Shown: positions 1 through 19,533, numbered from the stretch's first letter. The stretch is 64,000 bases of DNA from Cyanophora paradoxa CCMP329 (GCA_004431415.1 QPMI01000206.1:1-64000); one strand, 5' to 3'. Program-made: numbers and translations. Notes: generated by a model from the sequence alone, not told the origin.

Positions 1-1870
1 AGCTCTGCCCTCCCATAATTATCATTTGCAGTTCCCACTATGGGAATATACGAATATTTATCTTGCTGAATACTATCATTGGTCTTGAGCCATCTAAACT
101 GCTTACATCTGCTACATGAACCTGTATAGCAGAGTTGTAATTTTGGTAGGTTGCTGGGTCTGTTGGGACTCTGAATGTATCTGTGGGAATGTCAGCCTCC
201 ATGTAGCTTGACACAAAGATATTTGGTATGGTTGCTCCTGGTTGGGGTGACAAAAGAGCCTGGTATGTCCTAATATGAATGGTCCTCTCATAGCTGAATT
301 CGCAAGTGTCCCATTCACATGTACATAGTGTTCATTCAAAAGATTCTTTCAGGGACATTACAAGTCTGGTAAAGAGAACCCCAAGTTATCAAGAGGCTCT
401 CACCTTTGCGAATTCTGGTTGGTCATTGATCTCATCCCAATGTTCATGTTTGCTTGGTGGAAATCTGGTATCCCATCAATTTCCCCAATCATGCCTGTGA
501 TCTCTGGTGGATACTTTTGAGGTTTGCCTAAGATCTCATCCCAATCATGATTGTGATCCTCTGGGGGATACTTTGCAGGTTTTATTATTTGTTCATAATC
601 AGGAAAGAACTCCCAGATCTCAGGTCGAAATCCATCTGGTAACAATTTCCTCATGGGGTTCATAAGGTTGCTCAATAATCACAGCTGTGATCATGCCCAT
701 CTGGCAAATACTCCTCATCAGGTTCATAGTTCTGCTCATACTCAACTCTTGGGGATCTAAGCCATCTGGTAGTATCTCCTCCTCATTGGGGTCAAACTGA
801 TCATATTCATATTCTTGTGGGTCAAAACATCTGGTAAATATTCTTCCTCATCTGGAACGAATTGATATTCATCAAGCTCTAATATATCGACTTCAGGAGG
901 TAAATACTGCTCATCTATTTGCTTTCTGGTTCAATTATAGGTTTATTGCGAACTTGCTCCCAACTAACAATATGCTGCCCAAAGGCTACATCTTCAGTTG
1001 CTGTGTATTCTCTTCCAGGCTGTTTCTTTGGTGTTAATCGGGAGGTCCATTTGGAAATGGAATAGGGAATGGGACTGTTGGTCCATTGGGACCATAATGC
1101 TCAATGATTTCCCTTAGAGTTTTCTCACTTACAAGCTTCTCTCCATTTGCATACACATTGCTGCCATGGATATTTCGCCATTGCCTGGTTCGAATTCCAA
1201 GGTCTTTCACATTGCTATACAAAGGCAAAAGGTGCCTATCCATTTCGACTAAATCAGGGTGTAAATGGATTGCTACTGGTTGACTAGGGCTACTGTTGAT
1301 TGTAATTGATGGCTTTTTTTGATGGACATCTTTTGGAGTAAAAAACCCAAAAGGCTCATTCCTCGCAAAGTCATATGTAATATCCTTGGGGTAGACATCA
1401 TTTGTGTAGGAGACCTGATTTGTGTTGGCAATGGGACCCACTTGCAATACTTGGGGGACCTCAGCTTTTGGAGTGCTGCCCTCATTGTAAATTCGCAAAG
1501 CTGTGTTCTGTTTGCCCTGCTCATCTTGAACATTGAAAATCAATCGACCACTATCGAACCTGGAAGGTATATCTGGATGGGTGCCACTGGTTTTCAGTTT
1601 CCTAGGTCTCCTTCTTGTTGCTTTGATCTCTGCAACTTGGTTGGCTTTCACATTACCCAAACTAAAGGCTACACTGACATCCTCTTTATCTGGATCAGTT
1701 TGATTCACAGATAAAGCATGCTCCCTTGATTGAGTCTTTGATGAATTATCAGAGCTGTGGTCAATTGAAACTGAACCCTTTACTTTAATATTATCAAAGT
1801 TCACATGCTTGGTGCTGCTTGCATTATCATCTTGAATGGTTTCTAGATTGGGTGGGTAATTGAAGCTCAT
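1..1870 (-). CDS. Putative virion fibre/spike protein, split by several frameshifts and running off the window start
   Basis: ORF 1034-1870 contains LLPLYSNVKDLGIRTRQWRNIH (P-x-DLG-x-W fibre motif). Downstream frames give SWEQVRNKP, acidic EEYLPDG-type repeats and KYPPEDHNHDWDEILGKPQKYPPE (HxH-W-x-KP phage tail-fibre-like repeat). Confidence 0.6.
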
Positions 1871-1913
1871 GGCTTTTACTATATGGATTTATAAAATTCC
1901 TGATAAGTAAAAG

Positions 1914-3469
1914 ATGCCTCTCAAAGTAGTTCTCAGTTTGTCAGGGGGAGGTGCAAGGGGCATTATCATAACCAGGCTGCTCAAAGAAATCGAAAATCGA
2001 ACTGGCAGGAGAATAATCGATCTTGTGGATCTTGTGAGTGGAACTTCCACTGGTGGGATCATTGCTATTGGGTTAAACATCAGGCATCCTGATAAACCAG
2101 GTGAACCTAAACTGACAGCAAACGATTTACACAATATTTACCTAACTCAACTGCCCTTGATTTTCGCAAATCCTCGAAATATCATTGAAAATGCCCTATT
2201 TAACACAAAGTATGATGTGGGACCCTTGGAGACTGCAATCAATTCAGTTACTGGTGAATCACTAATACAGGATTCCCTTAAGGACATTGTGATCACATCC
2301 TTTGATACTCAGAATATGAAACCAATATTTATCACAAATGACAACAATTACAACTTTATGCCTTGTAAGATTGCTGCTAGGGCTACTTCTGCTGCTCCTA
2401 CATATTTCTCTCCTGTAAGCATTGTTGATTTCAATAGGGGAGTATATGTCTGTCTCATTGATGGTGCCATTTCGGGAAACAATAATCCCAGTGTGTGTGG
2501 TTACAGCCATGCAAAGAAGATTTACAGTGATGATGATGACATTATAGTAATAAGCATCTCTTGTGGAGAGGTGGACCCACATTTAGAGTCTGATTATGTG
2601 GGTTATGCTTATGAGACTGTAAACAGCTGGGGCATTCTCTCATGGATTGCCTCAACAGATGGAAGCCCATTGATTAACATGCTCATGGCTGCAAGTGAGC
2701 TATCTGCCCTTGATAAGATGGAGGAGTTGTTACCCTACAACTATGATCAGGATTATGGGAGATACTATAGGTTATCAGTCCCTCTTCCAAATCATATAGT
2801 AAGCTCCCTGGATGACACATCTAAGATCCCAGACATGCTTGCATTCACTGAAACATACATTGCAGCAAACAATGATATGATTAATAAGCTTTGCAGCCTA
2901 CTAGTAGCAAACTATGAACTAAAGAACCCTACAAAGGCTTACATTTCATCCACTCTCACTACATCACCTCCTTTGGATGCCAATTGGTATCAGCTTGCAG
3001 ATGATGCCTTTACTGCCTCATCCTCTGTGACAGGTAAAGAGCCTTTCATGGCTAGACCTTCAGCATTTGGCTGGGAAGCTGGAGCCTATGCTCCTGAACA
3101 GATATGGGAAACCCCACTGAATACCTTCAAGTTGCTTTTCCATATACTTTTGAACTCTCCTCTGTGATTGCCTATGGATCAGGGGACACCAATGCTTTTA
3201 TTAAGACTTTCAATGTGGCAACATCCACTGATGGGATCAACTGGTCTTTTATTCGATCAGATGGGCAAAACAAAATATATGTCTGTGAGAACATTAACAA
3301 TGCTCACAACTCTGGTGATGTGGCTCTATTGAGTGGGTTCCCTCTCAGCATCAAGGATGCTTTTTACATAGGTTATTCTCTGAGAATAAGATATATTCGC
3401 ATTTATCCCCTTGTGTATGTGAATGCTCCCACAATGAGAGTTGACTTTACAGGTGCCTTTATTCGATAA
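1914..3469 (+). CDS. Patatin-like phospholipase fused to an F5/8 type C (discoidin) domain; one frameshift near 3105
   Basis: Patatin motifs LSLSGGGARG, GTSTGG (catalytic Ser), ATSAAPTYF and DGA. The discoidin starts in ORF 1914 (AFTASS...W) and continues in ORF 3104 (EYLQVAF, STDGINW, RYIRIYP, MRVDF). Confidence 0.88.
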
Positions 3470-4390
3470 ACTCCAACTGAAAAGAATTATCGATTCCATT
3501 CATATCAATCAGTTCACCAAAGTAATCTTTAAACTCCACAGTGAGTTCCCTTATCACCAGGTTTCTGTCATTGATTTGAATAAATTCTGCATGTTCACCA
3601 CTATGGTAAACATAGCCCCCTATATCTTTACTCAATTGCAATCTAAGGATAGCTCCCTGGTTTTGTGGTTGCGATTTTGGAATTATATTGTGTCTGCTGG
3701 CAAAGGGGGACAGCTCTTTAATATGCATGTACAGATACTGCTCAGCATTCATATCAGACATCTTCCTGCTGTCAAAATAATATTGCAAGGGCTTAGAGGA
3801 GAGTCTGGGTCCTGAGAAGGTGATTCCCATGCTGGGTGATCAGGTGTAATAGGTTTGCCATCATACTTTAAAAGGTTCTCAGGTCGATAGGGAGATCCAC
3901 CAACAGGAGGAGTGCTATAATACCCAGTGGTGTATTCAGTAGAACTTACACCCAAAAGCTTTCCTATTCTCTGGTTGCTTGCAATAAAACGAAACTCATG
4001 GTTACTGTAAAACTCCACTTTATAGGTTGTTGGGTTGTAGAATATCTTGAACTCAAAAGCTACTGTTTTGCCTGCAATAGTTTGGAAGCTTGAATAGTTC
4101 AGCCCATAATTATAAGGGTGTGTGACCCCAAAATGACCCTGATTGATGTAGCCACTGGGAAGGGGATACACTTGTTGTGTGATCACTTGGTTATATGAAC
4201 CATCTTGGTAATTAAACTGAACTGTTAGATGATCAGTTCCCACACTGTTATAGATACTGTTTGGAATCTCTGCATAGAGAACCCTACATTCCCTTGGTCT
4301 CTCTACTGGAGTTGTGAGGGTGACCCTGTAAGAGTTTTCATTTTGTCCTTGGCTTCTATCCCTGCTATCAATATTAACGAGCCGGTTCAT
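3459..4390 (-). CDS. Minor capsid protein (penton, single jelly-roll) 1; frameshift near 3830
   Basis: N-terminal VNIDSRDR...YRVTL...LYAEIPNS and C-terminal YLYMHIKEL...LTVEFKDYFGELIDMNGIDNSFQLEF, typical of PLV/NCLDV pentons. Confidence 0.85.
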
Positions 4391-4418
4391 TTTAATATAT
4401 AATATAGATAAAAGAAGA

Positions 4419-5427
4419 ATGCCTGTGGATTACATCGAGGTTAGCTCATTTAATACAATCTCTGGTGATGGTCCCACATCAAGCTTTGTGGCTAGACTCC
4501 CCAGTAGTTATGAGAATGTGAGGGCTGTGAGACTGGTCTCAGCCGAATTTTATAACAGTATCCCTATGGTGAGTGGTGAAACCAAAGCAGGAGATGTGAC
4601 AGTTGACAATGCATTTAGCATTTATTATTCTGAACAAACTCCTGGAGCTGGAAGCTCAGGAATTCCAACAGTTCGCCCAGCTGCTGACTATGAACAATGG
4701 AAACAATTCATTATAAGTCGAAACACCCCATCCAAAGCCACCAGCAACTGGTGAATGTAATTAACTCTAAATTCGAAGGCAGAAATCCCAACCATCCATT
4801 CGCTGCAAATGGGATGAATCACTGAAACGAATTATATTCCACTCAGCAGTACCATTTTACTTGGCTTTCTCAGTAGCTGTGAACCCAAGCCAACAAACAA
4901 TCCAAAAGCTGTTGAGTTCAGCTAGACTGCTGGGTCTTGATCCTGGAAGATATGGTAACTCCCCAATCCAATCACAGGTCTATGATGCTCTCACTGATGG
5001 AATCTTTACTGGTGGTCGCGTGAATGGCATTATATCTTCTTTTGAGCCTGAGAAGACCAGGGACAGTGTTTTGTTTGTGAGAGTAAAGGAGCTGGGTGAT
5101 CTGGTGCAATGTGGGGATGGTCTTCTGACTGGTTACTTTCACAAAATAGTGGTCCCTGATAAAGACTATGGTGAGCATGTTGTTTACAATTCAACAGAAG
5201 CTCACCCACTTTACAAATACTATAATAAAAAGGTTGGATTATCCACTTTCTCGGTTGATATTGTAAATGCTATTAATGAACCAATTGATTTTGAGGGTCA
5301 ACCTGTTCATCTTACCTTTGAAATTCGCTATGGTGATGAGCCAGCTGGGGACCCAGTTTATGAATACTTCAAGATGCGAATGTCACAGCTTCACCCTTCC
5401 TATCCAGTTATTACAAACTTCGCATAA
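4419..5427 (+). CDS. Minor capsid protein (penton) 2; frameshifts at ~4720-4860
   Basis: IEVSS...SSFVARLPSSYENVRAVRLVSAEFYNS and VLFVRVKEL...LSTFSVDIVNAINEPIDFEGQPVHLTFEI; same fold signature as penton 1. Confidence 0.8.
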
Positions 5428-5480
5428 ATTAAGGATCATTGGTAGATTTTTTATGTTGCAGTATAATAAAAGAGAATATA

Positions 5481-6851
5481 ATGGATATCACTTCCACTCT
5501 TCAAAGACTTTCGCTGAAAGAAGCCCTAACAACCCCAGAAGAGGCGAAAGCCTTTTTCCTGGATAACTCCCTTATGCTTGGTCTCGAATCCAAATCTAAG
5601 CCAGTTCTAGTTGTTGTGAATCCCAGCAATACTTTTGAGAATAATGTTGGAAATCGCATTTCCTTCAAGCTACCTCGCTACAATTTCTGTGGAAAACTCG
5701 AACTTGCTTTCGACCTTCCAGCCATCACGTTTGCTGGTGATACTGACCTAGTTCGCAATGGATACACTCGCCCAGTTGGTGCTTTAGTTCAGCGACTTGA
5801 AATTACCTATGGATCTTACACCTACCATATTCCATCTGATTTCCTTGCTCATTTCCCCCTGGTCTATTATTCGGAGGATCAACTAGCTAAAAAGAAGCGA
5901 TCAATGGGCATGGTTCATGGCATCCCTGCTCATGGAACCAACCGCCTTGGTGGCTCATTCTTTGTTGAAATCCCTGTGCCTTGGCTAAATCACTACCTTC
6001 CCCTTGGTGCTTTATCTGGTGAAATGGTTGTTACTGTTTGGTTTAAGGATGCTGGAAAGGGTTATGTTGAAACTTCCTATGGTGGTCGCTCTCTCCCTGT
6101 TGTTGGTGGGACAGTTGCTGATAAGACAGAAGATGATGGTCTTGGTGATACTGCTAATGCCACACTTGCCCATGTTGGTCAAAATATCACAACTTTCAGT
6201 CTTGGTGCAACAACTCCTGTTATTTCTATTACTTCTCCTCGCCTTTACATGCATGCTATTAATGTTTCTGATGAGCTTTTCGCTACTGTCATTGAAAAGG
6301 TTAAGACAACTGGCATGGCTATTCCCTCCCTTGATATTGGATTTGTAGATGCTAGTGCTTTCCCTGCCAAGGGCAATGCCCAACCCAATCGAATTAACCT
6401 CTCTCAAATCTCAGGTCTTGTATATGCTCTGCTTGTTTCAGTTCGTGATCATGAAACTGTTGACAAATCCAATGGCTCCCACAGTGTTCTTAAGACCTAT
6501 GCCAACTCCAAAGACATCACATTCACAACTGAAATAAATGGTCAGCGACTTTTTGCCACTGAGCCAATTTCCCTACTCAAAGGTGCTGAGCTAATTGCTG
6601 ATGCCTTCAAATGCTCTAACATGGATAAGGTTGCTGATCGCTATGTCCTCTCAGGACTCCCATTCTGTCTTGATGGAGAAAAGGCAATTCGAAATATTGC
6701 CCAGTCTGGTTATGTTGATTTAACAAATTCCTCTTCTTCCTTCCTCACCCTCTACATGCCCTCAGATAAGGTAATCGATGTTAATGTTCGCGCTCTCATG
6801 CATTCGTTTATAATTTTGGACAAGGATGGTTTAAGGCGTATAAATTTGTAG
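5481..6851 (+). CDS. Double jelly-roll major capsid protein
   Basis: ~456 aa from ATG 5481. Motifs ISFKLPR, LELAFDLPAI, LVQRLEITYG and FFVEIPVPWL...YLPLGAL...MVVTVWF. Lies between the penton genes and the packaging ATPase. Confidence 0.88.
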   Translation: MDITSTLQRLSLKEALTTPEEAKAFFLDNSLMLGLESKSKPVLVVVNPSNTFENNVGNRISFKLPRYNFCGKLELAFDLPAITFAGDTDLVRNGYTRPVGALVQRLEITYGSYTYHIPSDFLAHFPLVYYSEDQLAKKKRSMGMVHGIPAHGTNRLGGSFFVEIPVPWLNHYLPLGALSGEMVVTVWFKDAGKGYVETSYGGRSLPVVGGTVADKTEDDGLGDTANATLAHVGQNITTFSLGATTPVISITSPRLYMHAINVSDELFATVIEKVKTTGMAIPSLDIGFVDASAFPAKGNAQPNRINLSQISGLVYALLVSVRDHETVDKSNGSHSVLKTYANSKDITFTTEINGQRLFATEPISLLKGAELIADAFKCSNMDKVADRYVLSGLPFCLDGEKAIRNIAQSGYVDLTNSSSSFLTLYMPSDKVIDVNVRALMHSFIILDKDGLRRINL

Positions 6852-6916
6852 ATTGTTACGATATTCAGTCACCATGCATTATTTTTATCTGTATTTATTT
6901 AGAAAGATATACAACA

Positions 6917-7699
6917 ATGAATGATTTGGATGAATTTGTGGCTGGTGAAATGATAGAACCACCATTTCGAGTCCTAGCAATTGGGAAATCAGCAACTGGT
7001 AAATCAGAAGCTGTAAAATATTGGTTGAAGCAGTTGCATGATGCCAAAAAGATTGATGTTGTATTAGTTGTGAGTGGAACCAGCTTCAATCATTTCTGGG
7101 ATAAAGTTGCAACATTGCAACTGGGAAAATGGGATGCCCCTTACATTGCTAAATTGCTAGATGAAAGGCAAGAGAAAATAGAAAAAGGTGAACCTGTTAA
7201 CCAGTTATGTGTGGTTCTAGATGATTTAATCGATAATGAGATTGTAGACCTAACTCGTGATAAAATTATTGGCTCTCTGTATTCCAGAGGTCGCCATTCG
7301 AAAATATCCATTATCTGCATCACACAAAAGCTAAGGAAAGTCTCTTCGACTATTCGAGTTAATTCGGACTATGCTATGTTTTTAAGTGCTGCAAATCGCA
7401 AAGAACTGGAAGCCATAGAGGAAGAATACAATATAATGCGAAATAAAGAGGATTTTTACAAGATGTTTGAAGAGTATGTTCACTCCTATCAGTATATTAT
7501 TTGGTCCTCTGCAAACTACTCAGTTAAATACTATGTAGATAAAGCTGAGCTTGTGAAAGATTTCCCATTTCCTCGCTTCCACAGAAAGCCAAAAAAGAAA
7601 GAAGATGAACTGAAACCTCCAGAGAAAGAGGAAGCCCCTAAAGAAGTGAAAAGCCAAGTCCATAGCAATAAATTGATGCGATATAAACGCGGTTTATAA
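6917..7699 (+). CDS. A32-like (FtsK/HerA superfamily) DNA packaging ATPase
   Basis: Walker A GKSATGKS, Walker B LCVVLDD, A32 motifs SRGRHSKISIICITQ and IRVNSDY. Confidence 0.93.
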   Translation: MNDLDEFVAGEMIEPPFRVLAIGKSATGKSEAVKYWLKQLHDAKKIDVVLVVSGTSFNHFWDKVATLQLGKWDAPYIAKLLDERQEKIEKGEPVNQLCVVLDDLIDNEIVDLTRDKIIGSLYSRGRHSKISIICITQKLRKVSSTIRVNSDYAMFLSAANRKELEAIEEEYNIMRNKEDFYKMFEEYVHSYQYIIWSSANYSVKYYVDKAELVKDFPFPRFHRKPKKKEDELKPPEKEEAPKEVKSQVHSNKLMRYKRGL

Positions 7700-7727
7700 A
7701 ATTATCTCTCATTCTAATAAAGATACA

Positions 7728-8462
7728 ATGCCTCCCAAACGAAAGATAGGGATCCCAGCTGGGGCTGTTGGCTATTCAGGTGGTGGAAACAATGGATCCA
7801 TTAATACTGAACCAATGAAATTCAATGGTATGAATGAGGTGAAGCCCTCACAGCAAGAAGAGGACCCTCTTAATGCTGCCTATGAGGAATCAGTCGATGA
7901 TAAAGCCCCACAGGCTTCAACCAGTGATCAACTCAACATCTCACCAGAAGCTTCGAAAATGAGGGCTGTTGCTGAGGGTGCCAGGCGAATTATTGGTGCT
8001 GCTGATGATAAAGGTTTAGGCTTGCAAGATCTATCACTGGCTCGCAAAGGTGAAGGTCTTAGTAAGGAATCAGACAAGGTAATCCAGTCCATGGCTGGTG
8101 AAGTCACATATAAGACTGCTCCCACTCAAAATATTCATCGAATTCCCAAGGCTCAATGGGATGAGATGACTGCTAAACTCAAAGATCTGGAAGCCAAATC
8201 CAGTGCTTTGGAGCAGTATGTTACTGAGAAGAAAGAGAGAGCCAAGCTAAAGGAGATGCTTCGAAAGGAAGTTTATAAAATGGGCATTACTGGTGTCCCA
8301 GATAAACAGTTTATTGCTAAGAAAGAGAACCAAATCGATGAGCAAGCAGTAGATGAAATGAAAACAAAGACCCAAAAGGGAACCATTGAACCTGGTGCCA
8401 CTAAAGCTGAAGTAGAAAAGGGAGTAGCTCCCACAGTATATAAAAGACGAGTTTGGCTTTAA
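7728..8462 (+). CDS. Hypothetical viral protein (coiled-coil; basic N-terminus MPPKRK)
   Basis: Intact 244-aa ORF, co-oriented with neighbours and with viral composition; no recognisable motif. Confidence 0.75.
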   Translation: MPPKRKIGIPAGAVGYSGGGNNGSINTEPMKFNGMNEVKPSQQEEDPLNAAYEESVDDKAPQASTSDQLNISPEASKMRAVAEGARRIIGAADDKGLGLQDLSLARKGEGLSKESDKVIQSMAGEVTYKTAPTQNIHRIPKAQWDEMTAKLKDLEAKSSALEQYVTEKKERAKLKEMLRKEVYKMGITGVPDKQFIAKKENQIDEQAVDEMKTKTQKGTIEPGATKAEVEKGVAPTVYKRRVWL

Positions 8463-8484
8463 TTTTCTCTGTTTTATTAGAGAC

Positions 8485-8986: not shown

Positions 8987-9064
8987 GATAATTGAGAAAA
9001 AGCGGTCTCAGTATGCCACTGAGGCAGCTATAAAAGTTTACAGACAGGAACTGGTGTTCGCAAC

Positions 9065-9080
9065 AAAAAATGACTTAAGG
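9065..9080 (+). promoter_or_regulatory. Candidate early-type viral promoter motif AAAAAATGACTTAAG (related copies at 9580-9593 and 12466-12480)
   Basis: Related motif 36-90 nt upstream of three non-structural ORFs (9139, 9683, 12517). Confidence 0.45.
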
Positions 9081-9138
9081 AAAAAGTAGATAGATTGTAT
9101 TGAGGAAAAATTATTTTCGTATCTACTATTAAAGAGAA

Positions 9139-9682: not shown

Positions 9683-12273
9683 ATGAACAAAATCGAGAAA
9701 TTCGCCACCCCTGTTGAAAATGCTACATTCCTTAGTACTCTCATTGGTGATCGCAACAAGGTCACCCATGTATTTGATTCTGCCGAAGATGCCCTTGAAG
9801 CCATTGATAATAGCAAGGTTAAGACCTGGGCTGAATGCATTCAACCTGAGCAAGTGACCAGAGTTTACCTGGACCTGGATAAATTCGCTGATTTGAAGGA
9901 GAACATTGCTGATAACTATGCTGAGGCGGAAACTGTTGTAAGAGAGATGAGAGATAAGCTATGGAAGCGATCTGGTACCACTTCTATTAACGATATTGCT
10001 GTTGCAGTTCGCCATAGAAGGGTTTATTTGATTAAGGAGGATGTCACCAAGTTCAAGATTTCAGCCCACTTTATTATTAAATCGCTTGCATGCAAACATG
10101 AAGATATCCCAAGCTTTTCAAAGCGATGGGATTGGTGAAAAATGAGGATTATGACAGTGGAGTTTACAGCTCCACACAGAACCTAATCTGCCTCAATTGC
10201 TGCAAAGGTGAGACTCTGGATGCTCAAAATAAGTCGAAAAAAGATGTTGATAAAAACGTTTGCTTTAAGAAATTCGTTGACTGTGACAAAGTGTTAATGC
10301 GAAATGAGGACTTCTTTGTATCTTACTTCTCAGCTACTACTAAACTTGTGGATGAATCAAATATTTCTGCATTTGCAAATTATACTCCTGAGCCAAAACC
10401 AGTTAAAAAGGAGCCAAAAAGTGATAAAGTGAAGACTGAGAAGGTAGAAGCTGAAAAAGACACTGAACCCGAAAATCCTGTTACTTTCGAACTGCTACAA
10501 AGTGTTATAATGGGTCTGAATGGTGAGAGAGCTAATGAGTATAAAACTTGGATTGATGTAGGACTGGTCATCATCAATGTTGGGGAAGACAACAAATTTA
10601 CCCCTAAAATGCAGGCTGAACTCTTCCACCAATTCTCAGAACAGAGTGACAAGTATGATTATGATGAATGCCAGGAGAAGTTTACACAGCTTCGCAGAAG
10701 CAAGAAGAAGGCTGAGCCTGGCAAAGTGTTGACCTTCAAATCCTTGGTTTATTGGTTGAGCAAAGATAACAATGAGCTTTTCAAGGAACTCTTCCCAAAA
10801 AGTATGCATTCCTACCAGAGGACACAGATGAAATCGATTACAAGACTGCAAGTATCCCTCCTTTGGCTGAACATTACAATGTGCATAAGAGGTATTTCAA
10901 TGCTCGAATGCATCATGTTGAAAATGTTGGTTGTGTGATGCTCTGGGATGAACAACTACTTTGCTGGATGCCCAAAGATATTGGGAAGCTCTCTACAAAG
11001 CATTTCCCCATTTGATGCATAAGGTGATTGTCAATGAGGGAACAGATAATGAGAAAGAGAAATGGGAGCAATCATTTAGGAAATGGATTGTGGATCCAAC
11101 AGCCACAAGATCAACTTACATGGATTTCCTTCCCCTCCTGCTACTCTCAGTGCAAAATGCAAGTCTGTATTTAATCTCTATCCAGGAATGAAGGTCGACC
11201 ATCAGCAATTCGAAAATGCTCCAGAGGATGTAACTGCTGAGATGATTAAGCCTTTCCTTGATCACTTGTTCTTAATGTCTGGTGAGGATCAAAATACCTA
11301 TGAATATCTGTTGAAATGGTTTGCCCACATGCTGCAAAAGCCTGGGGAACTCAATGGAGTATCCTTAATCTTCATTGGTGAACAGGGAACTGGTAAGAAT
11401 GTGTTGGTTGATACTTTCCAAAAGAAGATACTTGGAGATGCCCTGAGTTATGCAACTGGTAAGCCAAAAGAGGATCTGTTTGGTCGATTTGCCCATAACA
11501 GAGAGGATAAGATCCTGATTGTTGTCAATGAAGCCTCAGGCAAGGACACATTCGAAAATAATGATATGCTCAAAGATCTCATAACTTCTGATAAGATTGT
11601 AATTGAACACAAAGGGATAGATTCATACACAAAAAGCAACTTTGCCAGGATTATATTCACCAGCAATAACAACATTCCAGTAAAAATTGAAGCTGGAGAT
11701 AGGCGATTTGTGGTTGTTGAAGTTAGTAAGAAATTCGCAAAGGATAGGTCATACTTCCTTCCACTTGTAAAATGGCTAAATGATCACTGCAATATTCGAA
11801 ACATTGCCCACTATTTGAGAACCAAAGTTGACTGTGAGGATGTGAACTGGATTGCTGATAGACCCCTTACAAATAAATACTATTTAGCCCAGCAGGTATG
11901 CGCCCCAATCATTCTTATGTTCACTAAGTGGCTTGTGGATCGAGGCTTAATTTCCGAGAATAAATGCAAGTCTGGTAGCCTTGTGGAAACCTGGAAATGG
12001 TTCCAGGAGTTTATTACCAGCAACAAATATAAAAACGATTATAATAGTCGCAGATATTATACAGAAATGCGAAGTGTTACATATATCCAAGTGAAAACTA
12101 CAAATGGCAAACAATACTATCATTTCTTGTTCCCACAAGTATTTGAGGAATTCAGAAAGATGAAGCTTGTAGATGATGAGACCATTGAGGAAGAAGCTAA
12201 TCCAAGGATGAAACAAGAACTACCTGCTGCTGATCCTGATGCATCAGATTATGACTCTGATGTTGAAGTTTAG
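9683..12273 (+). CDS. AEP primase - PriCT-2 - SF3 (D5-like) helicase fusion, split by about three frameshifts
   Basis: AEP motifs RVYLDLD, KISAHFII and DSGVYS; PriCT-2 EYKTWIDVG...FHQFSEQSDKYD; SF3 Walker A GEQGTGKN, Walker B IVVNEA, motif C FTSNN and arginine finger DRRF. Confidence 0.9.
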
Positions 12274-12283
12274 GTTTACTCAA

Positions 12284-12465
12284 AAGTGGACTCACAGTTG
12301 ACTCAAATTTATCATAAAAGACCCAAACAGTCTTTTATTTATGGTTTATTTATCGATTAGGTTGACTAAGTGGGGGGAGTTGACTCATTTTTTCACAGAT
12401 TCTAAAAGAGGACTCTGCCCTAAAAAGAAATAAAAAGTGCCTCAACTCCACCCACTAAGTCAACC
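12284..12465. promoter_or_regulatory. Iteron/hairpin module copy 1 (candidate replication origin)
   Basis: AAGTGGACTCA and GTTGACTCA motifs, then inverted arms 12360-12392 / 12432-12465 around an A-rich spacer. Starts 11 nt after the helicase stop codon. Confidence 0.6.
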
Positions 12466-12516
12466 AAAAAATGATTTAAGAGATAGAAAAATATATTTAT
12501 ATGTAACTAGTAAGAA

Positions 12517-12867
12517 ATGGCTGGAACAGATCATGATTCTGGATCGATCTATATGATTGAGAGTCAGGAAATGAACAAAGTCTACATAGGAAGAACCTCA
12601 CAGCCACTTCAAAAAAGATGGAGACAACACAAATCAGGTCAAATGCCATCTACAGCAGACCTATGCAAGGCTTCTGATGTGAAGTTCTCAGTCCTGTATT
12701 CAAGTAAGAAGGGTGGGCATGAAGACCTAATGAACAGAGAAGCATATTACATGTATCTCTTTGAACCTTGGATAGTCAATTTACAAAAACCGAAATCCCG
12801 ATTTAGGATTAATAGGTTTTTGCGATTCCATTCAGAGGAAGCCAGTGGATCCATTAAAACATTTTAA
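12517..12867 (+). CDS. GIY-YIG endonuclease
   Basis: GSIYMIE...KVYIGRT, KRWRQH, REAYY and terminal VN. Confidence 0.9.
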   Translation: MAGTDHDSGSIYMIESQEMNKVYIGRTSQPLQKRWRQHKSGQMPSTADLCKASDVKFSVLYSSKKGGHEDLMNREAYYMYLFEPWIVNLQKPKSRFRINRFLRFHSEEASGSIKTF

Positions 12868-12927
12868 ATTGCGTTTAGAACATCCTAAAATAAAATATCC
12901 CCTTAGAATAGGAACAAGTTAGGAATA

Positions 12928-15900
12928 ATGCCCCGAATTACCAACAAACTCATAAGGGAGAAGAAATGGGAACTCATGGGATTGCTGGGAACACTTTATG
13001 CAGCCCATGAAATTACAGAGGCTGAATATGACCGGGAAATAGATTTAATTGCAAAGGGCAGACCCACTTTAAGCAGATTAACCAGAAAAGCAAATAACCT
13101 ATATGATAAAATTGAAACCTTGGATGAATTGGATAGGCTTAGGCAAATAGAACCAGATGCAGAAGATGGAACAGCCATGAATGAATTATATCGCTGGCTC
13201 ACTTACAGAGCCAGAAGGGAAGTTGTTGTAGATGTGATTGAATTCCTGGATAGAATTGCTACATCCCTTCCAAATCGATTAAAGCAGGGTTTAGATCAAT
13301 TCAGGGCAATCAAGGTTCGCTTGTCTTTTATCTGCAAGTTCGTTAAAGTGAGCAATCCACAGGTTTGGATATCGAAATACATTTACAGTGATTACTTTGT
13401 ATTAACCAGGTCGAGAAATATTCGAACTGAGCTGAATAAAGCAGCCCAAATGTGTCAGGAGCAGATGAATGTGGTTGATAGCTATCGCTTAGAAAGAATT
13501 GAAATACTCAGAGTGGCTATTATGAGTTATGCTCCAACTGGTGGATGCTTTCTACAAACCCCAGAGTGGATTGCTAGGAAGAGAGCCACAGTAAATATTC
13601 GAAATATTGATGATTCCTGCTTCGAAAATGCAATTTTGGCATATATTCACAGAAAAGCGATAAACTCCCATAAGAGGAATGAGCTTTCACAATATCGCAA
13701 ATGGAAATACTCAGCAATCGCTTATAATCCGCTGGCTCTCAATTTCGATAACATCCCATTCCCTGTTGCCTGTGATGCTGATATTATTGATAAATTCGAG
13801 GCTCAAAATGCAGGCATTAGCATTAATATATTTGGAATCGATGGAGAGGTTATTTATCCCCTGCATCAATCAAGTAACCCAGGCAGAAAGCATAAGGTTA
13901 ATCTCATGCTGATATTTGATGATGAAGGGAATGGTCACTATATTACAATCATGTCCCTTTCAAGGCTATTGAAAGTAAACCATGAAACATACAATGATCA
14001 GAAGTTACACTACTGTGACACATGCTTATCTCGATTCAGGTCTGAGGCTAAACTCACTGCTCATGTGGACTCAAACAGATGCATTGATTGGAGACTCTCA
14101 AAGGGAATCACACCAAAACCTGAGACCACCATAGAGTTTGGACTGAAAAACCTCAGGAAAACTGTTTGGCTTCCTGTTGTGGTTTACTGCAAGATTGAAC
14201 ATAGAAGCATCCCCATAGATGCATCGAAATCCAAGAGGGAAGTCTCAGCAGTCAACATTAGAATAGTCACTGGGGCAGATGTTCAAGATTTTCGATTTGA
14301 GGGTCAGGATCCAATGGGAGGTCTGTTTGAATGCTTGGAATCCAAAGCAAGAGAGCTAATTGACTTCCTGTTTACCAATATTCCCATGAATGAACTCACA
14401 GATGAGCAAAAGGCTGTTTACAGGGCTACTAAACACTGTTACCTTTGCAGTGAGAGGTTCACTAAAGAAAACTTCAAATGCAGGGATCATGATCACCACA
14501 CAGGTCATTATATTGCTCCTGCATGCAGAAACTGCAATCTCCATAGGAGAATCTCAAAGCAAACCAAAGTTGCAGTTGTTGTTGACCAAATGGATGACTG
14601 TGGGACATTCATTTTCAGAAAAATAGCAGGCATGGGTGATAAAAAGCGAATCGAAATCCTTTCGAAAAACTTTGATCAATACCTGTCATTGCAATGGGGT
14701 CTTTACAAGTTCATTGATGCAAGCAATTTCATGGATTTTGGAGCTGCTGATGTAGATGAGTTAATGAACAAATTCCAGGCTTTTAGAAGGCTTTCACACT
14801 CAGTATATGGATTGGACCCAGTTCATTATGTATCTGCACCTGGGTTATCTTGGGATGCTATGCTTAGGACCACCAAGGCAAAAATAGAGCTTATAAGTGA
14901 TGTAGAGCAATACGAATTTGTTGAGAGGGGAATCAGGGGTGGCTTTGCAACAATGCCTTGTAGGTATGCTGAGGCTGATGGTGAAAACTCCCACATTATG
15001 CTGTTTGATGCTAACAACTTGTATGGCTACTGTTTGAGTCAGCCAATCCCAGTTGGTGATTTTAGATGGGAGACCGAATTCAACCCACAAGATAACAGAT
15101 CCAGTTTCCTGGAAGTTGATCTGGATTACCCAATTAGGCTATATCTAGACCACAGTGATTTCCCCCTAATTATTAACAAGAAAATAGTAGAATATGCAGA
15201 ATTATCACAATATCAAAAGAGCCTATTAGATCTCTCAGGAGAAGAGCTTGATAAAACCCCAAAGCTAACTGCAACCTTTGGTTCTGTGACCAACTATGTG
15301 ATTTCTGAGCCTCTCCTACAGTATCTGTTGGACAAAGGGGTGAAATTAAAGAAAATTCACAGGGTCCTATCATTTACTGTGGCTCCTGTAATGAAATCTT
15401 ATATTGAGCTGAACACTGAGATGAGAAGGAAAGCAGTGAATAAATTCGAGGCTGATTTCTATAAACTGATGAATAATTCAATCTATGGGAAATGCATTGA
15501 ATCATGTAGAGGTAGATCTGTGGTAAAGATTGCTAATACTGAGAAGCTATTTATGAAATATGCAGCTTCCCCATTGGTGAAATCAACAAGTCCCATAAAC
15601 GAAAAAGCAGTTGCTTTTGAGTTTTACACAAAGCATGTGAAACTAGATAAGCCTGTTGCAATTGGGGCTTATGTTTTGGATGCAGCCAAACTGCATAATT
15701 ACCAGTTCTTCTATGATACTGTAAGGTCCCAATGGACAAAAGCAAAGTTACTATTCCATGATACTGACTCCTTCTGTCTATTTATTGAATCTAAGACCTT
15801 ACAAAAAGATATAGAGAATATATCCTATGCATTAGACCTTGGAGGTGATTCCAGAATGACCCCAGGTAAATACAAAAATGAGATGCCAGGTTCTGCTATA

Positions 15901-16173
15901 TTGGAGTATGTGGGTCTCAGAGCCAAAGTTTACAGTTTCAGAACTGCTGAGATTGAGAGGAGTAAGCTCTCTGGGACTTCAACTGAGGAACTCCAATTTA
16001 ATGATTTTAAGGAGTGTTTATTTGCAGGTATCAGCAAGACTGTGACTGCAAAGCAGAAGAGAAGGGCAGATCACACAATAATAGATACTGTGAGTAGAAG
16101 GGTTGCCCTAAACTGCTTTGATGCAAAGAGATACATCTTACCAGATGGTATTAATTCTGTTCCTTTTAATTAA
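12928..16173 (+). CDS. polB: Protein-primed family B DNA polymerase with putative terminal protein, vOTU-like protease, endonuclease VII-like insert and degenerate exonuclease
   Basis: Polymerase motifs LFDANNLYG, KLMNNSIYGK, HDTDS and KVYS; NIDDSCF...GHYITI; CYLC...RDHDHHTG...ACRNCN; GLDPVHYVSAPGLSWDAML typical of Polinton/adintovirus PolB. Confidence 0.95.
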   Translation: MPRITNKLIREKKWELMGLLGTLYAAHEITEAEYDREIDLIAKGRPTLSRLTRKANNLYDKIETLDELDRLRQIEPDAEDGTAMNELYRWLTYRARREVVVDVIEFLDRIATSLPNRLKQGLDQFRAIKVRLSFICKFVKVSNPQVWISKYIYSDYFVLTRSRNIRTELNKAAQMCQEQMNVVDSYRLERIEILRVAIMSYAPTGGCFLQTPEWIARKRATVNIRNIDDSCFENAILAYIHRKAINSHKRNELSQYRKWKYSAIAYNPLALNFDNIPFPVACDADIIDKFEAQNAGISINIFGIDGEVIYPLHQSSNPGRKHKVNLMLIFDDEGNGHYITIMSLSRLLKVNHETYNDQKLHYCDTCLSRFRSEAKLTAHVDSNRCIDWRLSKGITPKPETTIEFGLKNLRKTVWLPVVVYCKIEHRSIPIDASKSKREVSAVNIRIVTGADVQDFRFEGQDPMGGLFECLESKARELIDFLFTNIPMNELTDEQKAVYRATKHCYLCSERFTKENFKCRDHDHHTGHYIAPACRNCNLHRRISKQTKVAVVVDQMDDCGTFIFRKIAGMGDKKRIEILSKNFDQYLSLQWGLYKFIDASNFMDFGAADVDELMNKFQAFRRLSHSVYGLDPVHYVSAPGLSWDAMLRTTKAKIELISDVEQYEFVERGIRGGFATMPCRYAEADGENSHIMLFDANNLYGYCLSQPIPVGDFRWETEFNPQDNRSSFLEVDLDYPIRLYLDHSDFPLIINKKIVEYAELSQYQKSLLDLSGEELDKTPKLTATFGSVTNYVISEPLLQYLLDKGVKLKKIHRVLSFTVAPVMKSYIELNTEMRRKAVNKFEADFYKLMNNSIYGKCIESCRGRSVVKIANTEKLFMKYAASPLVKSTSPINEKAVAFEFYTKHVKLDKPVAIGAYVLDAAKLHNYQFFYDTVRSQWTKAKLLFHDTDSFCLFIESKTLQKDIENISYALDLGGDSRMTPGKYKNEMPGSAILEYVGLRAKVYSFRTAEIERSKLSGTSTEELQFNDFKECLFAGISKTVTAKQKRRADHTIIDTVSRRVALNCFDAKRYILPDGINSVPFN

Positions 16174-16176
16174 GAG

Positions 16177-17562
16177 ATGCCAGCAACTGGAAGAATAGTT
16201 AGAAGAACCACTGAGCAACTGCAAGGTAACCTGTTGCCTATCACAATTCCAAAGGAGGAAAAAGGGGAATCTCGAATTGTTAAAAAGTCTGAGATGAAAG
16301 AGCTTGTCCCAGTAGAGATCCCAGTTGCTATTGCAGTGAAAGAAACCAGCAAGATTGCCAAGAGATTCTATGATGTGAGAACTGGTTACAAAGGGCTTCA
16401 AGCTATGAGGGCTGAGTTACCAGATGAATCCTATAAGCAGTTGCAAGAGTTCTATAAAAAACAAGAGGTAGTTCAGATCAATGCACCTGCTATATCTAGG
16501 AAGAGAGATCCCATGGTCCCAATTAGGCAACCCCTTGATACCTATGTGATTGATTTGCTCTTTTTCCCAGCTTATAAGAAACAAAACAATGGCTATGATA
16601 CATTTATGACTGCAATGGAATCAACACTGAGAACTGGGTATATCATACCTATAAGGGATAAATCAGCTCTCACTACATTGGCTGCATTTAAACAGCTTGA
16701 GATGAGAGTAGCAAGACCCATAGTAAAGGTTCAATCAGATGCTGGGAGTGAGTTCCAAAATCGAATATTCCAGGAATATTTATCTAGTAAATTCATAGAA
16801 CACCAAGTGAGTGGAACTGCTGACCATAGAAGCCAAGGTCGAATTGAAGCCTTTAACAAGCAGATTAAGAGACTGATCACAAACTATTGCATAGCTAATA
16901 ACACAGCTAGATTCTTTGATGTGTTAGGTGATATTGAGTATAATTACAATAATACAGTTCACTCAGCTACTAAGATGAAGCCAGGCGAAACTACAGAGGA
17001 GCATTATAGGTATATAGTGGGATTAGAAGATGAGAGATTCAAGAAATCAATAGCTTACCTTGATACCATGCAGCCTGGCATGTTTGTTAGAGTGAAAGTT
17101 GAGAAGAACCCCTTTGCTAAACAGGGTAACAATTGGTCTAGGATGGTTTACACAGTTGATAGTAGGGAAGGCTTTAAGTTTAAGCTAAGGAGTCCCAATG
17201 GTGAGATCATAGAAAACAGGTTTGCTTTCCATGAGCTGTTGCCTGTGAATGCAGTTGAATATCTAGAAACCCCTACAGTGGATGCCTTAGAGCAAGCCAA
17301 GGAGGAAGCTAGGGTTGATGCTGCTATAAGGAGAGAAGGCATAGAAGCTGCTAATGAAGTCCCAGATAAGCCTTTGATAGAGGCTAGGAAGGAGAAGGCT
17401 GGAAAAGTTAGCAGGGAACTCAAAAAGCTCACTATAGCAGGGACACAGAAACTTTCAGAAGTGAATAGCCAGAGATGGTATAATGACTTTCAGACTACTA
17501 AGGAGTCATATACAGCCCCTAAACCTCAAAGAACACTAAGAGAAAGGACCAAAACTAGCTAG
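16177..17562 (+). CDS. Retroviral-like (rve, DDE) integrase
   Basis: Catalytic triad YVIDLL / QSDAGSEF / GRIEAFNK; YNNTVHSATKMKP and FVRV...FAK...NWS motifs of Polinton integrases; no C-terminal chromodomain seen. Confidence 0.93.
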   Translation: MPATGRIVRRTTEQLQGNLLPITIPKEEKGESRIVKKSEMKELVPVEIPVAIAVKETSKIAKRFYDVRTGYKGLQAMRAELPDESYKQLQEFYKKQEVVQINAPAISRKRDPMVPIRQPLDTYVIDLLFFPAYKKQNNGYDTFMTAMESTLRTGYIIPIRDKSALTTLAAFKQLEMRVARPIVKVQSDAGSEFQNRIFQEYLSSKFIEHQVSGTADHRSQGRIEAFNKQIKRLITNYCIANNTARFFDVLGDIEYNYNNTVHSATKMKPGETTEEHYRYIVGLEDERFKKSIAYLDTMQPGMFVRVKVEKNPFAKQGNNWSRMVYTVDSREGFKFKLRSPNGEIIENRFAFHELLPVNAVEYLETPTVDALEQAKEEARVDAAIRREGIEAANEVPDKPLIEARKEKAGKVSRELKKLTIAGTQKLSEVNSQRWYNDFQTTKESYTAPKPQRTLRERTKTS

Positions 17563-17786
17563 TTTCATAGCCGAAAACTCGTTTTTTCCAAATATATGTA
17601 TGTGTGATATACATATATGCATATGATATACACATCAACGTGTAGATCTTCTCAAGCGCTTCACAATGCTATGCAGAACGCTGCAAGTTGACTATCTGGT
17701 GATGAGATACAAGCGTTTGAAGATGCCGACAATCGAAAAACCGAAACTTCGGCGAAACTTCGGCGAAATGTTTTATTCTTTATGGA

Positions 17787-17888
17787 AATCGATTTCATGT
17801 AATCGATTTCATGTAATCGATTTCATGCAATCGATTTCATGTACGTAATCGATTTCATGTAATCGATATCATGTAATCGATTTCATTT
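17787..17888. repeat. Seven copies of the 14-bp unit AATCGATTTCATGT
   Basis: Read directly; one 4-nt ACGT insertion. Confidence 0.95.
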
Positions 17889-17889
17889 A

Positions 17890-18420
17890 GCACGAATTAT
17901 CTTTTAATTAGTGGTTTCAGGCACGAATTATCTTTTAATCAGTGGTTTCAAGCACGAATTATCTATCAATTAGTGATTTCAAGCACGAATTATCTTTCAA
18001 TTAGTGATTTCAAGCACGAATTATCTTTTAATTAGTGGTTTTAGGCACGAATTATCTTTTAATCAGTGGTTTCAAGCACGAATTATCTCTTAATAAGTGA
18101 TTTCAAGCACGAATTATCTTTCAATTAGTGATTTCAAGCACGAATTATCTCTTAATTAGTGATTTCAAGCACGAATTATCTTTCAATTAGTGATTTCAAG
18201 CACGAATTATCTTTCAATTAGTGATTTCAAGCACGAATTATCTTTCAATAAGTATTTCAAGCACGAATTATCTTTTAATAAGTGATTTCAAGCACGAATT
18301 ATCTTTTAATTAGTGATTTCAAGCACGAATTATTTTTTAATAAGTGATTTCAAGCACGAATTATGTGGTTTAAAGCACGAATTATGTGGTTTAAAGCACG
18401 AATTATGTGGTTTCAAGCAC
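17890..18420. repeat. Tandem array: 15 x ~31-bp GCACGAATTATCTTTCAATTAGTGATTTCAA, then 3 x 21-bp units
   Basis: GCACGAA recurs every 31 nt (one 30-nt step) from 17890 to 18354, then every 21 nt. Confidence 0.95.
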
Positions 18421-18743
18421 ACCAATCAGATTGCGCCAAACATATATACATAAACAATATGACAATTAACACATCGCCGTGATCGTCATAATCTCCCGAG
18501 TCCGCCCGTGTGTCATATATATCATATACATATGCAACGTCATGATGACGTCATATCGAAAACTCCCATACAAAACACTAAAAAGCATGTATCTCTTCAC
18601 CAACTCATCATCTCACAAAGATAAAAACAGATTCGGAATCCTCTCAACGAGACCAGCGTGACTATGTAAGTATCATAGGCTCAATAATTCATATGTTTCT
18701 AAGCATCTGCCCTAGATTCCCCTATTATATTATATTTATATTT

Positions 18744-19180
18744 AAGTGGACTCAAGGTTGACTCATATTAATCGTAAAAGTAGTAAAAGTATATGGATTT
18801 TGTTACGAATTCAATGGAGGGTTGACTAAGTGGGTTGAGTTGACTCAAATTTCACAGGAAATATTTGGGACCTAAAGTTTTCTAAAAAGGATTTGAAAAA
18901 ATGTGTCAACTCCCCCCACTTAGTCAACCCTGACCATAAACAGTAAGGATTTGAGCTAACATGTATCACAAAGTGAACATTTTGAGTCCACTTAGAAGAT
19001 CCACTTTTGAAATCCAAGTTGATTTTGCTTGAAATTTCAAAGTTGATCTAAAAGTGAGTCCACCCTGATTGATTATGGTAACAAAGTGGACTAAGTTGAC
19101 TAAGTTGAGTCATCTTAAGAAATTCAAAGAGACTAAGAGTTCAAAATGTTTATGAAAAGTGAGTCAACTTAGACCACTTA
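18744..19180. promoter_or_regulatory. Iteron/hairpin module copy 2 plus a third smaller hairpin (candidate origin in the terminal region)
   Basis: Same motifs as 12284-12465 at an offset of 6460 nt. Inverted arms 18819-18852/18897-18930, outer arms 18744-18755/18982-18993, third pair 19084-19101/19162-19179. Confidence 0.6.
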
Positions 19181-19230
19181 TGATAACAAAGTTAAATATT
19201 TATTTGATTTAATCGGAAAAGAACATGATT

Positions 19231-19456
19231 TAATCGAATTTATTGATATAATTCCGATTAGATTCATTTAGGATTCAATTAAGATCAATCGAAGTTATTG
19301 ATATAATTCCGATTAACTACAATTAAGATACAATATCGATTAATCGAGTTTATCGATATAACATCGATTAAATTAATTGAAAATGCATTTACAAATATGA
19401 AAATTCATGTGAAAATTCAAATAAATTAATCGATTTTATTGATATAACATCGAATC
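19231..19456. repeat. Four 30-bp dyad-symmetric subterminal repeats, consensus TAATCG-N18-CGATTA
   Basis: Copies at 19231, 19286, 19341 and 19427, with a conserved core TTAT(T/C)GATATAA. Confidence 0.85.
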
Positions 19457-19530
19457 ACACATATGAATATTCATATTTTAATCCTGAGGCGGAACGCCGA
19501 GGGATTAAAATATGAATATTCATATGTGTG
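19456..19530. repeat. Terminal hairpin: perfect 29-bp inverted repeat with a 17-nt structured loop
   Basis: CACACATATGAATATTCATATTTTAATCC (19456-19484) and its exact reverse complement (19502-19530); the loop contains GGCG-GAA-CGCC. Confidence 0.95.
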
Positions 19531-19533
19531 GCT

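What the first reader, a model, noticed from the sequence alone, without database searches (positions are those of the whole stretch)
1..19533. Integrating capsid-encoding virus that may combine an internal primase-helicase origin with terminal-protein priming at a hairpin end
Seen: one element encodes both an AEP primase-SF3 helicase and a TP/vOTU-type pPolB, plus rve integrase, capsid genes, a duplicated iteron-hairpin module and a structured terminus. Established: canonical Polintons and mavirus rely on protein priming, and PLVs with primase-helicases often lack pPolB. Streptomyces linear replicons fire an internal origin, then patch their 3' overhangs by terminal-protein priming on folded palindromes with GNA loops. 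Inference: this virus may use an analogous hybrid scheme (internal origin plus end patching). I do not know of this being described for a eukaryotic Polinton-like virus.
Basis: partly seen in the sequence, partly recalled or inferred. Interest (0 to 1): 0.88.

Follow-up and report, generated by a model that had tools for sequence, protein, structure and literature searches.

The report
Algal virus with captured replication origin
A virus integrated in many copies in a single-celled eukaryote has a protein-primed DNA polymerase that has lost its proofreading part, plus a primase-helicase gene with an origin-like repeat block behind it and a second copy of that block near the genome end, so the helicase likely opens the ends for protein priming, much as proposed for the virophage mavirus.

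Summary
The parts are real. Window 1 to about 19530 is the right-hand part of a multi-copy Polinton-like virus: capsid, ATPase, integrase, TP-vOTU-pPolB, AEP-SF3, two copies of an inverted-repeat block and a 75-nt terminal hairpin.

The gene pairing is not new. Mavirus/EMALEs and mavirus-related elements pair pPolB with a primase/helicase, and multi-replicase polisuviruses are in a 2026 preprint.

- The pPolB has lost its exonuclease (ExoI and ExoII dead, about 90 residues deleted).
- The four primase-helicase frameshifts are absent from the dominant short-read contigs.
- The primase-helicase lies in a cassette that seems present in only part of the family.
- The internal block has SaPI origin layout. 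It recurs behind related SF3 genes (42 of 68 and 16 of 29 loci, against 3 of 121 and 1 of 133 controls), and none of those loci held a full pPolB.

Best reading (0.5): a captured primase-helicase/origin cassette assists terminal-protein-primed replication from the ends, with the subterminal copy as loading site. Strict Streptomyces-style end patching is not excluded (0.17) but has no specific support. A nested pPolB-integrase element is unlikely.

The parts
1..19530 (.). Endogenous Polinton-like virus, right-hand part; left end outside the window
   Evidence: GC 33-42% against 60-83% in the host flank; flank carries F-box, Ufm1 and NTF2 genes; multi-copy in the host's runs
1914..3469 (+). Patatin lipase plus F5/8 (discoidin) domain, probably one gene split by a window frameshift near 3111
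   Evidence: Pfam; contigs of four runs differ by one base there
3459..4390 (-). Penton-like minor capsid gene, split near 3825 in the window
   Evidence: weak DUF5901 hit, E 0.024; N-terminal IDSRDR motif recalled as penton-type; read indel
4419..5400 (+). Second penton-like or virion gene, split near 4725 in the window; 3' end approximate
   Evidence: identity inferred, no family hit
5481..6851 (+). [quoted passage not shown]
   Evidence: only homologue found is P0121, 59% identical
6917..7699 (+). A32/FtsK-type packaging ATPase
   Evidence: Pox_A32 E 5.6e-11
9055..12890 (+). Variable cassette: small basic ORF 9139-9465, AEP-SF3 gene, internal block, GIY-YIG
   Evidence: contigs leave the window sequence at 9035/9054 and rejoin at 12891; lower depth than pPolB and capsid genes
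9683..12273 (+). AEP-PriCT2-SF3 (DUF5906)-winged-helix primase-helicase, about 864 aa; frameshifted in the window near 10107, 10793, 11005 and 11133, not in the dominant contigs
   Evidence: AEP motifs DxD, SxH and DxGVY read by eye (no profile hit for the AEP part); winged helix inferred from position and by eye
12284..12465 (.). Internal origin-like block: facing GTTGACT-type repeats around a 44-nt AT-rich spacer, 11 nt behind the helicase stop
   Evidence: layout recurs behind related SF3 genes
12517..12867 (+). GIY-YIG endonuclease
   Evidence: E 9.9e-11
12928..16173 (+). Polinton-type pPolB, 1081 aa: TP fold, vOTU with C231/H337, exonuclease lost (ExoI D to K422, ExoII H553/D559 replaced, about 90 aa deleted before ExoIII), polymerase motifs A-C intact
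16177..17562 (+). Retroviral-type integrase with D-D-E
17787..18420 (.). Subterminal tandem arrays (14 bp x 6.9, 31 bp x 15.4, 21 bp x 3.7)
   Evidence: some contigs skip this stretch
18744..19180 (.). Subterminal copy of the origin-like block (18744-18931) plus further repeats of the same word (18985-19180)
   Evidence: high depth, with another spacer version in some copies (loose end at 18863)
19456..19530 (+). Terminal 75-nt hairpin; GAA loop and tandem G-A mismatch on the 3'-end strand

Best explanation
This is an integrated Polinton-like virus whose protein-primed polymerase has lost its proofreading domain and which carries a likely captured primase-helicase cassette with an origin-like repeat block; the helicase likely loads at the copy of that block near each end and opens it, so that the terminal protein would prime full-length strands from the ends. 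SHOWN: the gene set; exonuclease loss; intact vOTU and polymerase motifs; an open primase-helicase frame in the dominant copies; both repeat blocks; recurrence of the block behind related SF3 genes. INFERRED: (1) the helicase's C-terminal winged helix binds the facing repeats and melts the AT spacer, as SaPI Rep does; (2) the subterminal copy lies in the TIR, so both ends have one; (3) the outward-moving hexamer frees the 3'-end strand, which folds into the GAA hairpin and is the template for TP priming; (4) the inward-moving hexamer, travelling 3' to 5' on that same strand, unwinds ahead of the exonuclease-less pPolB, while the AEP primes or re-primes the displaced strand; (5) the internal block is the cassette's own inherited origin and may fire only as a back-up.
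For: (1) Exonuclease loss: 119 and 118 of 120 homologues keep the ExoI and ExoII patterns, and 27 of 31 viral loci keep ExoII (the other 4 are fragments); the window keeps neither. None of those 31 loci showed an SF3 or primase (319 ORFs by HMM, 62 larger ORFs by Pfam). Krupovic et al. state that exonuclease loss is accompanied by helicase gain, and that mavirus S3H likely unwinds DNA (10.1101/2024.03.18.585575). (2) Origin layout behind SF3 genes: 16 of 29 scoreable IMG/VR loci against 1 of 133 control genes; 42 of 68 metagenome loci against 3 of 121; 11 of 24 scoreable clusters at 60% identity. The window scores 17 (internal) and 42 (subterminal) on this test, cut-off 8. SaPI ori lies directly behind rep with opposed iterons around an AT-rich region (PMC9371898). 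(3) In EMALE04 virophages, new primase/helicase versions always came with a changed TIR (PMC10945749), which points to the helicase acting at the ends. (4) pPolB keeps all its palm, finger and thumb motifs and the vOTU dyad, and is deeper in the reads than the cassette.
Against: No replication intermediate or binding was tested. The TP priming loop is altered: nine homologues have GS[G/N][W/L] or ETGY, while the window has VDSY with Asp in the conserved Ser/Thr column; S185 or Y186 are only candidates. What replaces the cassette in other copies could not be seen. The left end is missing, so a subterminal block at both ends is assumed. On the stricter exact 8-mer test the internal block scored only 2; the one-mismatch test was set up after that result. 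Thirteen of 24 SF3 clusters lack a downstream block (one, L126, has it upstream). Internal palindromes, some echoed near an end, also occur in pPolB viruses with no helicase found (L103, L114, L116, L117), so such blocks are not unique to helicase origins. The AEP part had no significant profile hit.
Confidence: 0.5

Rival explanations
1. Passenger replicon. The AEP-SF3 gene with its origin and the GIY-YIG nuclease is a semi-selfish cassette, or a replicase being exchanged. It spreads among copies of the family and can replicate a circular or linear form by itself, while pPolB works independently.
For: The cassette has sharp borders and lower depth. None of 31 plus 80 loci with related SF3 genes held a full pPolB (only 19 of the 80 are 8 kb or longer). 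L133 has the block duplicated as an inverted pair around an AEP-type SF3 gene with no pPolB found. The 2026 preprint describes second replicases acquired next to endonucleases (10.64898/2026.10.13.758929, section 13).
Against: The same repeat word sits in the subterminal region, at higher depth than the cassette. The pPolB has lost its exonuclease, a state linked to helicase gain. CpG depletion of the gene does not mark it as a newcomer (p 0.22 against the capsid region).
Confidence: 0.23
2. First reader's model. The internal block fires bidirectionally with AEP priming both strands, and TP-pPolB only fills the 3' overhangs, which fold into the GAA hairpin as in Streptomyces.
For: Origin-type layout of the internal block; open primase-helicase frame. 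The hairpin's GAA loop and G-A pairs are on the 3'-end strand, like the sheared-pair hairpins of Streptomyces overhangs. A polymerase that only patches ends would be free to lose proofreading. No paper with both 'end patching' and 'polinton' was found.
Against: Fourfold-site skew follows the coding strand and shows no switch at 12.3 kb (weak test). The cassette seems missing or diverged in part of the family. A single-stranded 3' end also arises in plain strand displacement. There is one long hairpin rather than a cluster of palindromes. No Tap-like gene was identified.
Confidence: 0.17
3. Nested elements. A transpoviron-like pPolB-integrase unit bounded by the two repeat blocks (12.3-18.9 kb) has inserted into an AEP-SF3 virus.
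For: The two blocks bracket GIY-YIG, pPolB and integrase, and their outer arms are 87% inverted copies. Such bracketing is described.
Against: No target-site duplication at the block edges. One contig runs 12220-13026, across helicase end, block and pPolB start, and pieces of this junction are deep in all four runs. pPolB and integrase have depth like the capsid genes; it is the helicase cassette that is lower. The only loose ends shown at the internal block match the subterminal copy.
Confidence: 0.06
4. Hairpin-primed ends. The terminal fold-back primes with its own 3' OH (parvovirus- or poxvirus-like), and the altered TP is vestigial.
For: The hairpin pairs to the last base if the end is 19530. 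The TP loop is altered.
Against: The TP fold and vOTU dyad are kept. No HUH nickase or resolvase was found in the window. Flip/flop variants were not among the rows shown (many rows hidden).
Confidence: 0.04

Closest known systems
Mavirus and low-GC EMALEs; mavirus-related group 1 (PMC8547959, PMC10945749, PMC13215967; 10.1101/2024.03.18.585575)
   Same: rve integrase, TP-vOTU-pPolB with lost exonuclease, separate primase/helicase (DUF5906-type SF3) that varies between copies, GIY-YIG, lipase, multi-copy in a protist
   Different: The pPolB here matches Polinton-type enzymes (32-39% to its 120 best hits, keeps the HNH insertion and both motif C Asp); no tree with mavirus pPolB was built. The capsid has no virophage MCP Pfam hit. 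No Ulp1 protease is seen in the part available. I found no description of iteron blocks in these viruses.
Polintons/Mavericks (Alpha-adintovirus-type pPolB)
   Same: pPolB with TP and vOTU, rve integrase, DJR capsid, ATPase, low-GC island
   Different: Exonuclease lost, extra AEP-SF3 cassette, highly divergent capsid, altered TP loop
SaPI PriRep5 plus ori (PMC9371898); phage P4 alpha with ori/crr (recalled)
   Same: Fused primase-SF3 helicase with opposed repeats around an AT-rich spacer directly behind the gene; a second copy of the site elsewhere, as recalled for P4
   Different: Eukaryotic linear virus, also has a pPolB; binding untested
Multi-replicase polisuviruses (bioRxiv 10.64898/2026.10.13.758929, section 13)
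   Same: Two replicase classes in one genome, internal repeats bracketing one module, endonuclease nearby
   Different: The preprint reads the repeats as mobility signatures; here they match an origin layout and the variable part is the AEP-SF3 cassette. Its figures were not seen.
Streptomyces linear replicons (PMC4513846)
   Same: 3'-strand hairpin with a GNA loop and G-A pairs; terminal protein; possible internal origin
   Different: One 75-nt hairpin, TP fused to a B-family polymerase, no Tap/Tpg; patching not shown

Membership tests
Polinton-like integrating virus (Polisuviricotina) | [quoted passage not shown] | tested here: met
   (low-confidence model, consistent hits)
Polinton-like integrating virus (Polisuviricotina) | A32 packaging ATPase | tested here: met
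Polinton (Polintoviricetes) | pPolB with TP and active vOTU | tested here: met
   fold and C231/H337 kept; priming loop altered
Polinton (Polintoviricetes) | rve integrase with D-D-E | tested here: met
Polinton (Polintoviricetes) | Intact proofreading exonuclease | tested here: not met
Polinton (Polintoviricetes) | Polinton-type MCP (Pfam DJR-like_dom) and Ulp1/adenain protease | tested here: inconclusive
   no Pfam hit for the MCP and no protease among 19 ORFs; left end missing
Polinton (Polintoviricetes) | TIRs and 5-6 bp target-site duplication | not testable with these tools
   left end outside the window; no genome held
Mavirus-like virophage | Virophage-type MCP | tested here: not met
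   no Sputnik_MCP hit, whereas such hits appear in other loci; Sputnik ranks 47th in the fold search
Mavirus-like virophage | Exonuclease-less pPolB plus separate SF3 helicase | tested here: met
Mavirus-like virophage | pPolB in the mavirus clade | not tested
   no mavirus sequence was obtained; best hits are Polinton-type
SaPI/P4-type rep-ori module | Opposed repeats around an AT-rich spacer directly behind the helicase gene | tested here: met
   weak on the exact-word test
SaPI/P4-type rep-ori module | Specific binding and melting by the helicase | not testable with these tools
   needs biochemistry
Streptomyces-type end patching | 3'-strand hairpins with GNA loop and sheared G-A pairs | tested here: met
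   (one hairpin; sheared geometry inferred)
Streptomyces-type end patching | Dominant internal bidirectional origin | tested here: inconclusive
   origin layout present; no skew switch
Streptomyces-type end patching | TP-primed synthesis limited to terminal overhangs | not testable with these tools
   needs replication intermediates

The most novel reading that the evidence does not exclude
A eukaryotic virus that replicates like a Streptomyces linear plasmid: a SaPI-type origin fired by its own primase-helicase copies the body of the genome, and a proofreading-dead protein-primed polymerase only finishes the ends on a folded 3' overhang. This would also reinterpret why mavirus-type viruses lost the exonuclease and gained a helicase.
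Probability: 0.17. Interest if true: 0.8.

Novelty: new variant of a known kind. Interest (0 to 1): 0.5.

Why it matters
How Polinton-like viruses and virophages start replication has not been mapped in the papers I read, and my searches found no iteron or end-patching description for them. This element gives named candidate sites (an internal and a subterminal repeat block, and a strand-specific terminal hairpin) and looks like a further, Polinton-type case of exonuclease loss paired with helicase gain. It predicts a physical reason for the reported link between helicase version and TIR sequence in mavirus-like viruses, which can be tested in a cultured system.

Tried and rejected
- Close relatives with genomic context were not found: capsid in IMG/VR, in metagenomes and in phages; helicase alone in IMG/VR. 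So co-occurrence of cassette, block and hairpin across relatives was not tested directly.
- The block's 15-mer gave 90 IMG/VR matches, none related to the element. The hairpin's 18-mer gave 5 matches with no long stem.
- No Rfam match.
- Contig ends of 31 pPolB loci showed no comparable terminal hairpin, but most are not true termini.
- Strand skew at fourfold sites follows gene direction and locates no origin.
- CpG depletion as a sign of a recent cassette: rejected, because the excess comes from the region upstream of the gene.
- Pairwise comparison of the AEP pieces with L126 was not significant, though motif lines matched.
- No RNA holder listed; X19 is only guessed to be RNA and was not used for expression.
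- The profile search of protein representatives never ran, so other exonuclease-less Polinton-type pPolBs were not surveyed.
- Summed contig depth is not a copy number and was used only with the loose ends.
- No complex prediction was run.
- Supplements of the bioRxiv preprints and all figures were not seen; they may list this kind of genome.
Full report
WHAT IS THERE. Window 1 to about 19530 is an island of 33-42% GC in a host of 60-83% GC; the flank holds F-box, Ufm1 and NTF2 genes. It encodes patatin, penton-like genes, a 456-aa capsid protein, an A32 ATPase, a primase-helicase, GIY-YIG, pPolB and an rve integrase. The capsid call rests on a poor model whose best matches are all double-jelly-roll capsids and on Atlas matches of its one homologue. 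That homologue, P0121 (59% identical), is recorded from the glaucophyte Cyanophora paradoxa, so the host is probably this or a related alga (inference). The left end is outside the window and no genome is held.

COPIES AND ERRORS. Eighteen of 24 listed runs hold half or more of the sampled words. In run X16, long contigs inside the element have depths of about 1200-2060, against 29 for the contig across the right junction, so the family is present in many copies. The window has single-base losses that the contigs do not share, in several genes. All four frameshifts in the primase-helicase (near 10107, 10793, 11005, 11133) are absent from the dominant contigs: three in all four runs laid, the fourth in two of four. 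The gene is therefore open in the common copies, about 864 codons. Whether the window's own copy is broken or mis-assembled cannot be told. The junction contig starts at 19503 in three runs, which puts the shared end at or before 19532; the hairpin's outer pair ends at 19530.

THE POLYMERASE. The pPolB is Polinton-type (120 best hits at 32-39%; best structural match phi29 polymerase). It keeps the TP fold, vOTU C231/H337 and motifs A-C. It has lost proofreading: ExoI reads YCKIE, ExoII is replaced, and about 90 residues before ExoIII are gone (27 residues between two anchors, against about 120 in most homologues). Of 120 homologues, 119 and 118 keep the ExoI and ExoII patterns. A deep contig covers the dead ExoII with one difference (record 8); no listed contig spans the deletion point itself. 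The TP loop is VDSY where homologues have GS[G/N][W/L] or ETGY, so the linking residue is uncertain.

THE CASSETTE. Contigs leave the window's sequence at 9035 (three runs) or 9054 (one run, 255 or more unlike letters) and rejoin at 12891 in all four runs. Between these points long contigs run at about 1200-2060 in X16 and 2200-4100 in X5. Per-position sums in pPolB and integrase are about 6100-7700 and 13700-17300. Sums are inflated by overlaps, so I read this only as 'a part of the family, perhaps a quarter to a half'. One contig spans 12220-13026, tying helicase, block, GIY-YIG and pPolB start together.

THE REPEAT BLOCKS. The blocks at 12284-12465 and 18744-18929 are 70% alike, each with facing repeats around an AT-rich spacer. 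I fetched 31 IMG/VR and 80 metagenome loci with related SF3 genes; some contigs occur in both sets. None held a full pPolB. Three tests of the DNA behind the helicase stop were run:
- Stem score 17 or more: 10 of 31 loci against 1 of 73 control genes; window 19.
- Exact 8-mers, score 9 or more: 16 of 31 against 1 of 133; window only 2.
- 10-mers with one mismatch, cut-off 8, set after that result: 16 of 29 against 1 of 133, and 7 of 172 genes in pPolB viruses; 42 of 68 against 3 of 121 in metagenomes; 11 of 24 scoreable clusters; window 17 and 42. Loci with under 380 bases downstream were dropped (2 of 31, 12 of 80).
The repeat word differs between lineages. This is the layout of the SaPI origin (PMC9371898, passages). 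Earlier AI notes report the same layout in other viruses; they are not evidence. Against specificity: four pPolB loci with no helicase found also have internal palindromes.

THE END. The 75-nt hairpin is far beyond chance (z -14). Its GAA loop and tandem G-A mismatch are on the strand whose 3' end is terminal; the other strand has TTC and pyrimidine mismatches. This suggests selection on a single-stranded 3' end, as in Streptomyces telomeres and parvovirus ends (PMC4513846, passages). It does not tell how that strand becomes single-stranded.

WHAT IS KNOWN. Low-GC EMALEs encode a primase/helicase and pPolB (PMC8547959, passages). In EMALE04 the helicase is hypervariable and changes with the TIR (PMC10945749, section 7). 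Mavirus pPolB has only a remnant exonuclease, and exonuclease loss goes with helicase gain (10.1101/2024.03.18.585575, parts 2-3 and passages). pPolB with DUF5906 marks mavirus-related group 1 (PMC13215967, passages). Genomes with two replicase classes and bracketing repeats are described (10.64898/2026.10.13.758929, section 13 and passages). PMC8502044 (section 10) mentions adintovirus-like proteins in C. paradoxa contigs. PMC12721341 was read as passages only. Searches for 'end patching' with 'polinton' and for a virophage origin of replication gave nothing, and none of the 25 listed of 219 papers held 'iteron'.

MECHANISM. I favour (0.5) helicase-assisted protein priming from the ends. An SF3 pair loaded at the subterminal block would free the 3'-end strand for TP priming and unwind inward ahead of the polymerase on that same strand, with the AEP serving the displaced strand. 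The internal block would be the origin the cassette brought with it. All steps beyond the anatomy are inferred. A passenger or replacement replicase (0.23) fits the cassette's patchy presence. A nested pPolB-integrase element (0.06) lacks a target duplication and is contradicted by the read links.

VERDICT. Real, and a new variant of a known kind. The gene pairing is known; the Polinton-type exonuclease loss with a SaPI-type origin copied to the subterminal region gives testable sites. Interest 0.5.

Noticed in passing
window 8741-8986 and 9139-9465: Two small basic ORFs share a KYRExxEYRE...ALxYY motif and end in a GRP(R/I)KY hook-like motif; a similar small protein lies between the repeat block and the AEP-SF3 gene in L126 (6860-7100). 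Possibly DNA-binding helpers of the replicase (inferred).
   Followed up: partly
window 1-17560 versus 17560-19530: Viral gene bodies are CpG-depleted (o/e 0.18-0.43) while the host flank (1.08) and the subterminal region (1.36) are not; may reflect methylation of integrated copies.
   Followed up: partly
L133:240-505 and 4906-5171: The iteron block is duplicated as an 88% inverted pair around an unknown 373-aa ORF and a PriCT2-SF3 gene; looks like a self-contained replicase cassette.
   Followed up: partly
L103:4657-4840, L114:4663-4764, L116:11572-11751, L117:5705-5884: pPolB viruses with no helicase found carry long internal palindromes; those of L114 and L116 are echoed near a contig end.
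   Followed up: partly
window 17736-18473: Deep contigs skip the 14-bp and 31-bp arrays, and this stretch has depth similar to the helicase cassette; the arrays may be specific to the cassette-bearing subfamily. Not phased.
   Followed up: no
window 13243-13578: The terminal-protein region differs strongly between subfamilies (loose ends and dense substitutions), which may go with different end sequences.
   Followed up: no
window 26731-26954: Host-side array of an 11-bp unit (AGTTGGACGAA) in a GC dip; unexplained.
   Followed up: no
window 24932-25943 and 51009-52103: Inverted duplicated host segments, 70-93% alike.
   Followed up: no
L108, L115, L120: Sputnik-type capsid together with a Polinton-type pPolB, like the described rumen virophages.
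   Followed up: no
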